From NCBI RefSeq assembly GCF_009914755.1, contig NC_060931.1: 64,000 nt of DNA; one strand, written 5' to 3'. The stretch comes from the human T2T-CHM13v2.0 reference genome, Homo sapiens. The notes under the pieces were generated by a model that was given only the letters and a program-made list of their open reading frames with translations, was not told where the DNA came from and did no database searches. Every line of letters starts with the position of its first letter. Positions within the stretch are counted from its first letter, which is position 1. Shown here piece by piece: positions 37,967 through 44,739 of the stretch. The translations under genes were made by a program, and so were the position numbers.

Positions 37967-38437
<471 letters not shown>

Positions 38438-38529
38438 TGAAGAAAGCAAATCATTTCCAAAGGAAAACATTTTAAATTCCAAGTATTTAAGACTCAGCTT
38501 GCATTTTGTTGTGTTTGAAAAGAAAGTAG

Positions 38530-39146
<617 letters not shown>

Positions 39147-42100
39147 CTAAAGCGAAGTCCTCAAACCAAAAGTAACAGACATGTCATTCTCATTATACTT
39201 CAATCAAAAATCAGACAACAACCAGAAAACGCATTGGTAATATTTATATTTGAAAGTTCCCCATTTATACATGAGGTTTGGATTACAACTTATTTACAAT
39301 AAGTGATTTCAAAAAAAGTAAAGAAAGAGGAAGGGAAGAGGGAGGGAGGAAAAGAGAGGCTCAGAGAAAGAGAAAAAAGAGAAAGGTGGGAGAAGAAAGG
39401 AGGGAGGGACGGAAGAAAAGGAAACCTATATTCATAGACATCATAATATAGGATATTTATTTCCAAGAGAGATACTACTGCTGCTGTCATGCACAAGAAG
39501 CACTACAAATTCACATTCCGCTAGAACACAATTTGCTCAACTTTCTCTCAAGATGCACGATCCTTTTAGATTTTCAAAATTAAATATAGAGGAATATAAA
39601 ATGCAATGCCAATATGCCTACTACAAAAAATCCCTTGTGGCTCATTCCTTAACTCCACTCAGAGAAGCAGCTGAGCCAGAGTACAAAAATAAAAATATTG
39701 ATGTGCAAATAAAACATCAGTGATCATGTCTGGTGCCACCCTTTTGTTGCAGGTGACTGTCACCTTATGATAACATTGGTAAGAGCATCAAAAGAGAATC
39801 TCTTCATTTCCTGGGCAGGTCAGTGCATCCAATTAAAAGGAAAAAAGGAAAACAAGGAAAAAAACCCCAAACCCCAAAAAACTCTAAACACTTAAAAATT
39901 CCAATAACATCCATACATCACTTTCCCATCCCACCTTCATCCCCACAAAAAAATAAAAATGCTTTTAAAGCTCTAAATATAATATTTTTGTTTCTTTCCA
40001 CAGTGTGATTGAGCCTAAGGCTATACATTTAAGTATAGCAGGTGCAATTACAAGCAAGTCCTGGCTCTGCATCCTGGACTATCCCACACATAGGAGGTAC
40101 AAAATAAATTAAACCCTTTCATTTAGGCAAACAAGCCCAAGATCTACATAACCCTGCTTGTGAGTATCCAGCGGCATTGAGGGTATTATTTATTTCTTAT
40201 TTTTTCTTTTCTTTTATAAAGAACAGTCAAATATTAGGGAGAGCAACATATAATAAAATTTAAAAGGACAAAAACTCAACACTGAAGGAAAACAACTGGG
40301 GATACTTGCACAATGAAAAACAGGGACGCATGCTTGATTCCAAGTATGAGATGGGGGAATTCACTCACATAGCTGTTCTAGGCCCACAGCCTAAGGCCTC
40401 AGCATCATTCTAAACCACAGGGTTGTGTATATTTTTCTCTTCCAAAGACACTTTTAATCATATCCCTGAAATCAATATGGTAAGGATAAGGTTGGAGTCA
40501 TCATCACTTACTAACTACAATATTTGCTATTTAAAAAATATATTTATCTATAGTTCTGGAAATTATGAAGCAAACAAAATATAACACAAAGTTTCATTTG
40601 TCACAATTAACTCAAGTTGCAGCAACAGCAGAATTGTGGGAAGGGACAGGGACAGAGGGCTGCTGCAAATGCAGCAAGTATGTCCTGAAATATGTCACAC
40701 AGTGCAACAGTCAGATTACCTCAGTTACTCTCCGTCACCGCACACAACATGACTAATGTCACATTGTCACTTTCCATTAAAAAAGAAAAAGACAGCGTTT
40801 CTTCTCAGAAGTTGCCCTATGAATTTTAGACATATAGCTTTAATTGATACTTTAAATATGTCTAAAATGTGGCTTTATTCTTCTCAGTTTGGAATGATCA
40901 ACATACAAAATTGACATCAAGGAGGAGAGCTGTAAGTTTTCACCTTTACTCTTGAAGACAGGGTAAGGTGCGAAAAAGGATCCTGGCCTTGCTCGTTTCA
41001 AATGACTGCATTTCATTCCAATGGGCAGAGATTCTTCATAAACCTGTGATTTTAATATCCTCTACCTAAAAAGATGAATTAATGGAAAACAAAAGTTTAT
41101 ATCATCAAAAATAAATATAACGTAGAGTTGAAACTAAAGGGCTAAAATGACGAGGGCTAAAAAAGAGATTTGTAACAAATTTATTTTTATCACTTTGTTC
41201 CAGCATTTTTAAAGTCAGTTGTTTTGTCTTTGGCAGCCTCTACCAACTTTACAGTGAATCCTCATCAATGTTCTTTTTTTTAAAAAAAAAATACTATTAA
41301 TTCCATTAAACCATGTTGTGTCTGGTGTTGCATATGACTTTTTTTTTACTGCGGGTTTTTTTTTTAATTAACAATGCCAGTTTTGTTCTTGTTTTTTTAC
41401 AAAGTTACTGAGATAACAATATCCATAATTAGCTGACTCTTACATACACACTGTGACCTGATAATCCTGAAAAACTTCATGGAGGAGAAAGGTCAGCAGC
41501 TTTTTTTCCTTTTTCTTGAAAACAATAAAACTGTATATTCTACTTTATATTTAAATGTAAGGAAGAAAATATACAAGCCCGTATTTATATTGTATTTCTA
41601 TTAAGAGCAACAATAGTTCATATGTTCATGTTTGCTACTATCACAATTCAATGCATGAACACAGAATCAGCTCTATAGCACGAATACTGCTGGAAGTGAT
41701 GGTTTAGGATTACCAACTCACTGCTGCCATGTCCATAACAAGCAAAATCATCCTGGAAATAAACCCCCAAACACATATCTTTCAGTACATAATAATGCAA
41801 CTGCATTAGGTAAGTACATACTGTACACAAGTTTTATCAGCAGTTTACCTACCCAAGATGTAAGATTCTTCATTTAAATACAAAGCGAAGAGTCAATAAG
41901 ATATATATATATATACACACACATATATATACATATATATAATACAGCCCTAGATTTTGTTTTTTGTTTTTTTCTTAAACAATTTGATCACGATGCACCT
42001 TTGATATAAAACCATTTTTAAACTTTATTATTAATACTCAAGACATTAGGAATTTCCAGATTTTTTTCAGTAGCCTTTGTAGAACCACTTTTGGTAACCA

Positions 42101-44111
42101 ATACAGTAGTTAGGAATATGCATCCAATTCAAAATGCATAATAATACTTATCCTGAATCCTTTCCGGCAAAAAAGAGGGCTGGTGCTGTGATGAGATATA
42201 GAATGAGAATCTACAAAAAACACTGTAACATGTTTGTTTTTTCCCAGAGGCTACATCCTCTTTTGCTGGAATACTTTATAAATATACATTAAAAAGTAAG
42301 GCAACAACTCCAAACAGTCCAAGCTGTTTGCTCAACTCTTTTCCCAATTAGATTTATTTGCAATCCCGGCGATCAATTTCATGGTTGTATTGTTTAGTGT
42401 TTGTCTTTCTTATTTCAAATGGTCCAAAAGGATGTTTTTCTTGCATTTCTAAAACATCTGTGGTATGTGTGTTCAATGATATATGCAACTAATACTGGTC
42501 AGGTACTGAAGCCTGTGATGTCCCAGTGCCTGTTTTCAAAGGATTCAAGACATTGATTTGGATTCACCATAAACTGATGCATGAATCCAAAATTCCCTTC
42601 CTTACTATGTTTATCACCTGTTCTCTTTTAACTCCTAGTTTTAAAACTAAAGGAGTACCAGGACTACCTGGTTACTAGAAAGATGTTCATCCCAGTAAAC
42701 AGAACTTTTATCAGTTCTGTCATGACCCCATTCCACATGGACATTCAACTCAGGAAGATGTGCAAAAGAAAAGATGTCAAATTACAGTCAAGTTATCCAG
42801 AGGAGGATGTTACACAAACTTATAAGGAAATGAGTCTTTTTTTCTTCCTTTACTATAAATACATTTAACAGCTTAGCAGAAAGACAAGCTAAATTTAAGA
42901 TTGTTCACATTTGAAAATTGTATCATACTCTCTGCTAGTGATAAATAAGGAACTCCCGATAATGGAATTTTAACATAGCAATTTCATCAACAGAACTTTG
43001 AGGACTGATTTTTTTCAAAAAGAGGGTTAGAACAATGATTATGTTTGCAAAGTCCTGAGAAGTCCATCTGCTGTCCAAACTTTGGACTGAAGTCCTTATT
43101 TTTTTTCCTTTACTTAGAGACAGGTATATACAGTGCTGTTGTAATAATGAAACAAATGTGAAATCTACTGTAAAGCTGCACAATATGGAAAACTGTTGCT
43201 CCATCTTCTACTACATAAATGTGTGACTCCACAGGTTAGTAATGTTGTTGTCATTGTTTTTGTTAAGTTGGAATTATTCCATCACATCTAAGACCTCTCT
43301 TTAACTCCAGATCCTCCAATTTTTTCCAAATTCTTCACACTCCTTTTCTTTCTTTTTCTCATGCTGACGATCTGACTTGTGTGTGGCTGTCACCTCGTTA
43401 AACATGGTGCTGTTCATTTCTATAAATGCCTTCAACACGTTGTACACCAACGCCACAATAGCCGGATTCCAATGTTCTTTTGAAATCATATAAAGGCTGG
43501 AAAACTTGATGGGAAGGATGACGTTAGAGTTTTCTTCTATCAAACTCATGATGTATTCATTATTCCAATAATAGAGTGCTCTTTCTGCCACCTGAAAATG
43601 GGGGCTAGATACACACTTGGCGATTTGTTTAAACAAAGGTTCTTGGATTTTAACAAATTGTGAAGGTTCAATCACATCCAATATTTCTTCCAGTTCCCCA
43701 AGAAACGTGACCTCTTTTTGACTACATGTTTTAGGCCAAAATTTCATTAACCCCCTAATACTCGTTCTGTGAGTGAAGGATCTTTCTCCAGAAACTGTAC
43801 TGTACAATATGCCAGCTGTGCATGGAAAAGTGATAAGCTCCTGACAGTGTGTAAGGGGATCAATACCTTCACCAGAAAATGTGTTCTGCCTTAAGAGGTA
43901 AAGCAAAGCCATTGATAATACTTCCTAATGTTTCCAGAAGTTCAGCTACACCATTGAAGCGTTCTGTTTCATAAACAAACCTTAGAAAACTATTGTTAAT
44001 CTGTTTTTGGATAAATGCTCTAAGACCGAGAAACTTGCCATAAATTCTGTGTAAGACTGTTTTAAAGTAGTCCCGTTCCCGAGGGTCTTCGCTGTCAAAT
44101 AGCTCCAGAAG

Positions 44112-44320
44112 TGTGATCATCAGGCAATTTTCCAAGCAATCTCCATATTAATCCTCCTGATGAGGTAATTCTGTCCCCCTTTTACAGAAGAGGAAACTGC
44201 GGCACATAAGGGTTAAGTGACGTGCCCATGGTCTCACAGCTAATAGGTGGTAAAGCTAGAATTTGAACCCCAGCAGTTGAGGCCAAAAGTCCATGATCTC
44301 AACCACTGCACTATGCTACC
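44112..44320 (-). mobile_element. MIR carried inside the 5' end of the PPP2R5E retrocopy
   Basis: Minus strand tagcatagtgcagtggttgag..ggggttcaaattc..tagctgtgagaccatgggc..cacttaaccc..cagtttcctcttctgtaaaagggg..gcttggaaaattgcctg follows the MIR consensus. It lies between the retrocopy TSDs. Confidence 0.85.
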
Positions 44321-44739
44321 TACTGATATTCCAAACACCAGTGCTGTATTTTTAATAGAGATGGGGTTTCACTATGTTAGCCAGGCTGGTCTCGAACTCC
44401 TGACCTCGTGATCCGCCTGCCTCGGTCTCCCAAAGCACTGGGATTACAGGGGTGAGCCACTGCACCCGGCCCATTAACAGGTATCTTATGCCAAAAATAA
44501 ATTCTTGATTTCTTTCCCCAAACTGAACTCCTGCCCTAGTCTATCTTATCTTTAATGGCACCTCCAGCCTCAAAGTTTCTCAGACCAACCTTGGAGATGC
44601 TCTGAATTCTTCTGTCTCACTCTGTAGAACAAATGCATCAGCAAATCCCACCTATTATTACATGTGAAATGTATCCAGAATCCAACAATATCTCCCCATC
44701 CCATCTCAAGCAACCATCCTAGACCAAGCCATCAGCATC

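What the first reader, a model, noticed from the sequence alone, without database searches (positions are those of the whole stretch)
44101..44344. PPP2R5E retrocopy appears to record an unannotated MIR-exon isoform with its own in-frame ATG (N-truncated B56-epsilon)
Seen: between the retrocopy TSDs, the 5' end is not upstream PPP2R5E CDS. It is ~230 nt made of ~25 nt of unique sequence plus an almost full sense-strand MIR, joined to CTTCTGGAGCTATTTGAC (LLELFD). The join (..gcttggaaaattgcctgATGATCACA|CTTCTGG) falls where the MIR consensus reads GCTTAGAACAGTGCCTGGCACATA|GTAAG, at the MIR's GT donor. ATG 44120-44118 is in frame ([12 protein letters not shown]). Established: MIRs stopped moving long before AluS, so a MIR cannot have jumped into this Alu and must have arrived with the insertion. 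From memory, unverified: LLELFDSED starts a coding exon in B56 genes, and a retroelement-driven N-truncated B56-gamma has been described in mouse melanoma cells. Inference: a germline PPP2R5E transcript spliced an intronic MIR exon onto a mid-gene exon, possibly encoding a ~285-aa B56-epsilon lacking its N-terminal HEAT repeats. The Kozak context is weak.
Basis: partly seen in the sequence, partly recalled or inferred. Interest (0 to 1): 0.82.

Follow-up and report, generated by a model that had tools for sequence, protein, structure and literature searches.

The report
Retrocopy preserves a MIR-exon PPP2R5E transcript
A dead, reverse-transcribed copy of the phosphatase-regulator gene PPP2R5E on chromosome 7 begins with an extra exon made from an ancient repeat inside the parent gene, so it preserves an old alternative transcript, but nothing shows that this transcript makes a protein.

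Summary
Window 44335-44112 (- strand) is 94% identical to chr14 57604362-57604585. That stretch lies in sense inside PPP2R5E, 262 bp upstream of the exon that starts at Leu184 (LLELFD). The parent continues with GTAAGT exactly where the retrocopy switches to the LLELFD exon, and that exon follows AG. All nine downstream junctions are intron-free. The copy ends at the gene's AATAAA site and sits between 9-nt target-site duplications inside one Alu. A spliced transcript carrying a MIR-derived exon was therefore retrocopied, roughly 20-40 Myr ago by my estimate.

- **First exon or internal exon:** I cannot tell whether this exon was a first exon (intronic start site) or an internal "poison" exon in a 5'-truncated copy.
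- **Coding potential:** The parental ORF (MIT + residues 184-467, 287 aa) is intact. It has a weak start context and two upstream ATGs.
- **"Unannotated":** This could not be tested here. A testis-specific first-exon-variant cDNA of PPP2R5E (FLJ53109) is in print (PMC2780955) and may be the same exon.

It is a solid but ordinary "genomic fossil".

The parts
44345..44472 (-). 5' part of the host Alu that the retrocopy split. The Alu's own target-site duplication (atacctgttaat) lies just outside at 44484-44473.
   Evidence: Read. The matching duplication and the rest of the Alu are at 38140-38129 and 38304-38141.
44345..44353 (-). 5' copy of the retrocopy's target-site duplication (aaaaataca), in the A-rich middle of the Alu
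   Evidence: the same word with one mismatch follows the A-run at 38313-38305.
44336..44344 (-). Nine nt at the 5' junction that do not align cleanly to the parent. They are either diverged parental sequence or filler.
   Evidence: The 9-mer is absent from the held chr14 loci; its only hit is a chance one in L007.
44112..44335 (-). Copy of the alternative exon of PPP2R5E, mostly a sense MIR (named by recall). It ends where the parent has its GTAAGT donor.
   Evidence: 94.2% identity over 224 nt to G000:C14:57604362-57604585 (-). Donor seen. A probe across the donor matches the retrocopy only up to the donor.
44118..44120 (-). ATG in frame with the downstream B56-epsilon reading frame, 9 nt before the exon junction. 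An in-frame stop lies 10 codons upstream.
   Evidence: window. (parent: same ATG, TAA 10 codons upstream, context tgcctgATGA).
43981..44111 (-). Copy of the 131-nt exon that starts at Leu184 ([13 protein letters not shown]...)
   Evidence: 97% identity to C14:57603967-57604099. Exon limits from AG/GT. Residue numbering from 8uwb_B.
43263..43980 (-). Copies of the eight further coding exons, joined without introns, to the stop codon at 43265-43263. Broken by at least a 4-nt and a 1-nt deletion and by stop codons.
   Evidence: colinear exons, all AG..GT in the parent. (deletions). (stops inside the Pfam matches).
38318..43262 (-). Copy of the whole long 3'UTR of PPP2R5E. It is interrupted by a younger Alu at 38941-38627, which has its own 19-nt duplication (38960-38942 and 38626-38608).
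   Evidence: 43361-38942 and 38626-38318 align to L021, with L021 3026-3044 matched twice. Sequence read.
38309..38338 (-). Polyadenylation signal AATAAA (38338-38333), end of parental homology (38319/38318) and a short A-run (38316-38309)
   Evidence: the parent continues with unrelated sequence after ...gaagag.
38305..38313 (-). 3' copy of the retrocopy's target-site duplication (aaaaatgca)
   Evidence: compared.
38141..38304 (-). 3' part of the split host Alu with its A-tail, followed by the Alu's own duplication at 38140-38129

Best explanation
Window 38305-44353 (- strand) is an L1-type processed pseudogene of PPP2R5E. It was made from an alternative transcript.

Shown: the 5'-most retained exon of that transcript is a stretch of about 224-233 nt, largely a sense MIR. 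It lies at the 3' end of the ~18.4-kb intron that precedes the exon for Leu184. A GTAAGT inside the repeat served as the 5' splice site. It was joined, across a 262-nt intron, to the normal acceptor of the Leu184 exon. All later exons were spliced normally and the distal AATAAA site was used.

Inferred:
- The transcript was present in the germline of an ancestor roughly 20-40 Myr ago.
- The exon was most likely an alternative first exon, from a weak start site inside the intron. The odds are only about even against the internal-exon variant listed as the first rival.
- The 287-aa reading frame that opens 9 nt before the junction is most likely incidental.

The chr7 copy itself is dead, with frameshifts and stops.
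For: -: 233-nt probe; chr14 57604362-57604583 (-) at 94%, E 6.5e-91. The next best of 40 scored matches is 81%.
- the parent reads ...GATGATCACA|GTAAGTGCC, and ...TTACAACAG|CTTCTGGAG 262 nt further on.
- a 136-nt parental probe spanning the donor matches the retrocopy only over its first 80 nt, that is, up to the donor.
- nine downstream parental exons and the 3'UTR are colinear and intron-free in the window.
- all nine parental introns have AG and GT.
- the alternative exon lies between the exons at 57622519-57622635 and 57603959-57604108, on the same strand.
- the upstream exon ends ...VLQ in phase 0.
- identity of the extra exon (94.2%) matches that of the main 3'UTR block (94.2%); one search gives 95.6% for the last exon plus 3'UTR after global alignment. 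So the exon arrived with the rest.
- target-site duplications, AATAAA, A-run and the split host Alu with its own duplication.
- For a first exon: PMC2780955 Table 3 (read) lists FLJ53109, an oligo-capped testis-specific first-exon-variant cDNA of PPP2R5E.
Against: - No RNA data were available, so the transcript is known only from this one fossil.
- The 5' end cannot be shown to be a cap site. There is no CpG island (observed/expected 0.31 upstream) and no well-placed TATA-like word.
- Acceptor-like sites lie 278-520 nt upstream of the donor in an antisense Alu.
- Long retrocopies are often 5'-truncated (general knowledge).
- Whether FLJ53109 uses this exon is unknown. The paper's supplement could not be read.
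- The dating rests on 13 differences in 224 nt and on recalled substitution rates.
Confidence: 0.88

Rival explanations
1. Same splicing event, but the MIR stretch was the 3' part of an internal exon, or of a partly retained intron, in an otherwise full-length PPP2R5E transcript. Reverse transcription stopped early, so the retrocopy's 5' end is a truncation point and not a start site. Such an exon would be a poison exon: all three frames contain stops.
For: -: acceptor-like AGs behind pyrimidine tracts lie 278, 356, 413/422 and 520 nt upstream of the donor, inside the antisense Alu.
- stops in all three frames of the exon; no CpG island.
- the 5'-most 9 nt do not align cleanly, as at many truncated L1-type 5' junctions.
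- 5' truncation is common for retrocopies of ~6-7 kb mRNAs (general knowledge).
Against: - It requires an unusually long internal exon (at least 278 nt) or a retained ~18-kb intron remnant.
- A published testis-specific alternative first exon exists for this gene (PMC2780955), although it is not shown to be this one.
- No acceptor lies at or within the retained 233 nt except one 67 nt from the donor, which the copy reads through.
Confidence: 0.4
2. One reading: the transcript is a working mRNA. Its ATG yields a 287-aa B56-epsilon lacking residues 1-183 (about the first third of the B56 domain), with a dominant-negative or decoy role.
For: -: the ORF is intact in the present-day parent, ATG plus 286 codons.
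- the in-frame stop 10 codons upstream makes this ATG the only possible start of that frame.
- the ORF keeps residues 184-467, Pfam B56 positions ~142-413.
- By recall, the LxxIxE-pocket residues (HRIY...R) lie within the Leu184 exon and would be kept.
- A truncated B56 isoform with a cell-motility effect is in print (Ito et al. 2000; title seen).
Against: -: context tgcctgATGA (C at -3, A at +4) is weak.
- two upstream ATGs (a 19-codon uORF and ATG-TAG) precede it in a ~222-nt leader.
- among the 120 best of 5550 matching proteins, the only ones with the MIT-LLELFD start (P0004, P0005, P0006) carry the retrocopy's own substitutions. None has the parental sequence.
- the junction peptide is in 0 papers.
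- Loss of the first HEAT-like repeats would probably destabilise the fold (inference).
Confidence: 0.08
3. The 5' segment was not spliced on. It was added by template switching of the L1 reverse transcriptase to another RNA, by capture of DNA at the insertion site, or by a later precise deletion of an intron from an unspliced copy.
For: Chimeric retrocopies made by template switching are known (general knowledge). The 9 unaligned nt at 44344-44336 show that some untemplated or diverged sequence is present.
Against: - The switch would have to fall exactly at an exon's first base on one side and exactly before GTAAGT on the other. It would also have to be in the same gene, same strand, 262 nt apart.
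- Captured DNA is excluded because the flanks are the two halves of one Alu with its own duplication.
Confidence: 0.02

Closest known systems
Processed pseudogenes as records of past splice variants (Shemesh et al. [quoted passage not shown]
   Same: A retrocopy preserves an exon-exon junction of a transcript form that differs from the reference mRNA.
   Different: Here the recorded form carries a repeat-derived 5' exon of one specific gene. Whether that form is in today's annotation was not checked.
Exonized MIR elements (Krull et al. 2007; Lin et al. 2009; titles seen; papers not held)
   Same: An intronic MIR supplies exon sequence and a splice site. Here the donor GTAAGT lies inside the repeat in the parent.
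   Different: Published cases are mostly internal cassette exons supported by RNA data. Here the support is a single retrocopy, and the exon may be a first exon.
FLJ53109, a testis-specific first-exon-variant cDNA of PPP2R5E (Wakamatsu et al. 2009, PMC2780955; Table 3 and the passages defining first-exon variants read)
   Same: Same gene. An alternative first exon mapped in what had been taken as intron or upstream sequence. Germline tissue, as retroposition requires. The ORF differs from known cDNAs.
   Different: The paper gives no coordinates or sequence, and the supplement was unreadable. Identity with the MIR exon is therefore open. By recall, it could instead be the exon behind the known 391-aa form.
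N-truncated B56-gamma1 of mouse melanoma cells (Ito et al. 2000, EMBO J 19:562; title seen; paper not held)
   Same: A B56 regulatory subunit lacking its N-terminal part. By recall, it is driven by a retroelement.
   Different: That protein was demonstrated and has a phenotype. Here only an ORF exists. A search for the retroelement detail found no paper.

Membership tests
L1-mediated processed pseudogene (retrocopy) | All introns of the parent are missing at the exact exon junctions | tested here: met
   ten parental exon blocks, including the alternative exon, are contiguous in the window. The parent has AG/GT at each of the nine downstream introns and GT after the alternative exon.
L1-mediated processed pseudogene (retrocopy) | The 3' end lies at a polyadenylation site and is followed by an A-tail | tested here: met
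   AATAAA at 38338-38333, homology ends at 38319/38318, then 8 A. The tail is short.
L1-mediated processed pseudogene (retrocopy) | Target-site duplication flanks the insert, at an A/T-rich target | tested here: met
   aaaaataca / aaaaatgca (9 nt, one mismatch) in the A-rich linker of an Alu. The Alu's two halves and its own 12-nt duplication flank the insert.
Exonized MIR (repeat-derived exon) | The exon sequence derives from a MIR element | tested here: inconclusive
   38 further genomic matches at 71-86% on both strands; a shared core with six such copies. The family name and orientation are recalled; no consensus library was available.
Exonized MIR (repeat-derived exon) | A splice site used by the exon lies within the element | tested here: met
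   the GTAAGT donor directly follows the last retained base, and repeat-like sequence continues beyond it in the parent.
Exonized MIR (repeat-derived exon) | Inclusion in mature RNA shown by transcripts | not testable with these tools
   Only indirect evidence: the retrocopy itself. No RNA-seq, EST or CAGE data are held.
Alternative first exon / intragenic promoter | A capped 5' end (CAGE, oligo-capping) at the exon start | not testable with these tools
   PMC2780955 reports such a variant for the gene in testis, but without coordinates.
Alternative first exon / intragenic promoter | Promoter-like sequence upstream | tested here: inconclusive
   CpG observed/expected 0.31 and GC 0.45 in the 700 nt upstream, which is mostly an antisense Alu. 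There is no core-promoter word at the usual distance (by eye).
Protein-coding N-truncated B56 isoform | Intact ORF in the parental transcript | tested here: met
   287 codons, MIT + residues 184-467 (numbering).
Protein-coding N-truncated B56 isoform | A start codon likely to be used (good context, no upstream ATG) | tested here: not met
   C at -3, A at +4; two upstream ATGs.
Protein-coding N-truncated B56 isoform | Protein or peptide on record | tested here: not met
   no protein with parental sequence and this N-terminus among the 120 listed; 0 papers with the junction peptide. Isoforms could be hidden by clustering, so the absence is weak evidence.

The most novel reading that the evidence does not exclude
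PPP2R5E has an old (at least 20 Myr), germline-active start site in the intron before the Leu184 exon. Its MIR-derived first exon supplies an ATG for a 287-aa B56-epsilon that lacks HEAT-like repeats 1-3 but keeps the SLiM-pocket residues and the C-terminal repeats. This protein would act in testis as a decoy or dominant-negative for PP2A-B56 targeting, and it is not in current gene models.
Probability: 0.06. Interest if true: 0.6.

Novelty: new member of a known kind. Interest (0 to 1): 0.36.

Why it matters
- It is a clean, checkable case of a retrocopy acting as a fossil of an alternative transcript. It pins one exon (CHM13 chr14:57604362-57604592, minus strand) and one junction that anyone can look up in testis long-read, CAGE and Ribo-seq data.
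- If that exon is absent from gene models, it adds a repeat-derived 5' exon to a well-studied PP2A regulatory subunit gene.
- If the ORF were translated, it would give an N-truncated B56-epsilon of possible regulatory interest.
- It also shows that the RefSeq pseudogene row covers less than half of the real retrocopy.
- Otherwise it is ordinary. Retrocopies that record splice variants, and exons made from MIRs, are both established.

Tried and rejected
- **Template switching, DNA capture, later intron deletion:** rejected because both sides of the break are exact splice-site positions in one gene, and because the flanks are one Alu.
- **Nine odd nt at 44344-44336 as the tail of the canonical upstream exon:** that exon ends ...TTACAG and the 9-mer is absent from the held chr14 loci.
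- **GTAAG as native to the MIR family at this position:** tried by aligning six other copies (3' parts not alignable) and by a genome search with the donor-spanning 136 nt (2 of 2 candidates were the parent and the retrocopy). No result either way.
- **Whether the isoform is annotated or in print:**
  - Protein search: 5550 hits, 120 listed.
  - Junction peptide: 0 papers.
  - RefSeq accessions and FLJ53109: 2 papers, neither giving exon structure.
  - PPP2R5E with 'alternative promoter': 3 papers.
  - Pseudogene names: 0 papers.
  - One search was badly framed, and none of its 20 listed papers held PPP2R5E.
  -, for a short B56-epsilon form, found nothing relevant.
- **Supplement of PMC2780955:** not readable.
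- **Papers not held:** Ito 2000, Shemesh 2006, Krull 2007 and Lin 2009.
- **Not attempted:** no structure or complex prediction was run, because the parental isoform is not contiguous in any held DNA.
Full report
**What is in the window.** Read on the - strand, an Alu starts at 44472 and breaks off after ...ctctattaaaaataca at 44345. It resumes at 38304 with aaaattagcagggcgtggtgg... and ends in its A-tail at 38141. The same 12-nt word, atacctgttaat, lies just outside both ends (44484-44473 and 38140-38129). The two pieces are therefore one Alu with its own target-site duplication. Everything between them is an insertion, bounded by aaaaataca (44353-44345) and aaaaatgca (38313-38305).

**The insertion is a PPP2R5E retrocopy, and it is longer than annotated.** A BLAST of 44400-38250 against the parental pieces I fetched from the window's own genome shows ten colinear blocks:
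- the extra 5' segment (44335-44112);
- the exon that begins LLELFD (from 44111);
- seven further coding exons;
- the last exon with the whole 3'UTR (43361-38942 and 38626-38318).

The gap at 38941-38627 is a younger Alu. It has its own 19-nt duplication and is absent from the parent: L021 3026-3044 is matched on both sides. Homology ends 14-15 nt after an AATAAA (38338-38333) and is followed by eight A. The RefSeq row (41509..44117) therefore covers less than half of the copy. The copy is dead: a 4-nt and a 1-nt deletion lie in coding exons, and stops lie inside the Pfam B56 matches.

The 233 nt at 44344-44112 were searched against the whole assembly.
- Of 106 first-look candidates, 40 were scored.
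- Besides the window itself, one match stands out: chr14 57604362-57604583, minus strand, 94% identity over query 10-233, E 6.5e-91.
- The other 38 matches are 71-86% identical, cover only query positions 38-178, and lie on both strands of many chromosomes. That is the signature of an old interspersed repeat.
- By recall of the family this is a nearly full-length sense MIR. No consensus library was available, so the name is recalled and not tested. Six of these copies share the core in an alignment.

The coding part of the retrocopy maps to nine exon pieces on the same strand of chr14 between 57604099 and 57583375. Pfam B56 matches place the upstream exons at 57661078-57661284, 57629383-57629502 and 57622519-57622635. 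The extra segment thus lies in sense inside PPP2R5E. It sits 262 bp upstream of the LLELFD exon, at the 3' end of an intron of about 18.4 kb. The upstream exon ends ...VLQ|GTAAGC in phase 0.

**The junction.** The parent reads ...TGCCTGATGATCACA|GTAAGTGCCATATG..., and 262 nt later ...CATTTACAACAG|CTTCTGGAGCTATTTGAC. The retrocopy reads ...TGCCTGATGATCACA|CTTCTGGAGCTATTTGAC. A 136-nt parental probe laid across the donor matches the retrocopy over its first 80 nt only, stopping at the donor (2 of 2 candidates were the parent and the retrocopy). Both sides of the break are exact splice-site positions of one gene, on one strand, 262 nt apart. Template switching, DNA capture and a later deletion would each need this double coincidence, so I reject them.

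The extra segment is as diverged from its parent (94.2% over 224 nt) as the main 3'UTR block (94.2%; 95.6% for the last exon plus 3'UTR after global alignment). It therefore arrived with the rest of the copy.

**Age (inference).** Thirteen differences in 224 nt of presumably neutral sequence, about 5.8%, is close to what I recall for human-macaque neutral divergence. That suggests roughly 20-40 Myr, with wide error. Three proteins in a public collection carry the MIT|LLELFD junction together with the retrocopy's own substitutions:
- a 260-aa UniRef model named for Pan troglodytes (P0006);
- two unnamed ORFs (P0004, P0005).

I read them as copies of this retrocopy, probably orthologues or other alleles. 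They are not the parental isoform.

**What kind of exon.** This is the open point.

For a first exon:
- The copy simply begins there.
- Wakamatsu et al. (PMC2780955; Table 3 and the defining passages read) list FLJ53109. It is an oligo-capped, testis-specific first-exon-variant cDNA of PPP2R5E whose ORF differs from known cDNAs. No coordinates are given, and the supplement could not be read.

Against a first exon:
- There is no CpG island (observed/expected 0.31).
- The upstream 700 nt are mostly an antisense Alu.
- That Alu offers acceptor-like sites 278, 356, 413/422 and 520 nt from the donor.
- The 5'-most nine nt (44344-44336) do not align cleanly and do not come from the canonical upstream exon.
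- Retrocopies of long mRNAs are often 5'-truncated (general knowledge).

If the stretch were internal it would be a poison exon, because all three frames hold stops. I put first exon against truncated internal exon at roughly even odds, slightly favouring the first.

**Coding potential.** In the present-day parent the ATG 9 nt before the donor is in frame and opens a 287-codon ORF: MIT plus residues 184-467 of the 467-aa protein (numbering from PDB 8uwb chain B). A TAA 10 codons upstream closes the frame, so this ATG would be the start.
- Its context is weak (C at -3, A at +4).
- Two ATGs precede it: a 19-codon uORF and ATG-TAG.
- The product would lack Pfam B56 positions 1 to about 141 of 413.
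- By recall, the LxxIxE-pocket residues (the HRIY...R stretch) lie within the Leu184 exon and would be kept, while the first three HEAT-like repeats would be lost.
- No protein with the parental sequence and this N-terminus appears among the 120 best of 5550 matches. This is weak evidence, since clustering could hide an isoform.
- The junction peptide occurs in no searchable paper.

I rate translation into a working protein at under 10%.

**Comparison with what is known.** Retrocopies that preserve splice variants, and exons made from MIRs, are established. For Shemesh 2006, Krull 2007 and Lin 2009 I saw only titles in reference lists; the papers are not held. The truncated B56 isoform of Ito et al. 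2000 is likewise known to me only by title and by recall. A search combining it with 'intracisternal A particle' found nothing. No paper mentions this pseudogene. Whether the exon is in GENCODE or RefSeq for chr14 could not be checked with the tools given. The word 'unannotated' in the finding's title remains untested.

**Verdict.** The thing is a well-preserved fossil of a MIR-exon PPP2R5E transcript: a new member of a known kind, of moderate interest. The protein reading is possible but weakly supported.

Noticed in passing
window 38318-41508 (- strand): The RefSeq pseudogene row LOC154937 (41509..44117) stops at an internal A-rich stretch. The colinear PPP2R5E 3'UTR continues for about 3.2 kb to the AATAAA at 38338-38333.
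   Followed up: yes
window 38627-38941 (- strand): A full-length younger Alu lies inside the retrocopy's 3'UTR. It has a 19-nt target-site duplication (38960-38942 and 38626-38608) and is absent from the parent gene.
   Followed up: yes
proteins P0004, P0005, P0006: Public protein collections hold ORF models built on copies of this dead retrocopy. One is a 260-aa UniRef entry named for Pan troglodytes that skips the frameshifts. These are probably pseudogene-derived gene models.
   Followed up: partly
L012 about 200-1370 (G000:C14:57602667-57603837): A purine-rich (GGA/GAG)n tract of about 1.2 kb lies on the chr14 + strand. It is pyrimidine-rich in the sense of the gene. It sits in the PPP2R5E intron just downstream of the Leu184 exon.
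   Followed up: no
G000:C3:52406620-52407852 and G000:C7:139332004-139333863: Two other intronless B56-like loci, with about 70% nucleotide identity to the PPP2R5E coding sequence. They cover Pfam B56 positions 1-413 and contain stops. They are presumably processed pseudogenes of other B56 paralogues.
   Followed up: no
L012 1700-1790 (inside the 262-nt intron of the parent): A second short stretch that, by recall, resembles the 3' end of a MIR-type repeat lies between the alternative exon's donor and the Leu184 exon.
   Followed up: no
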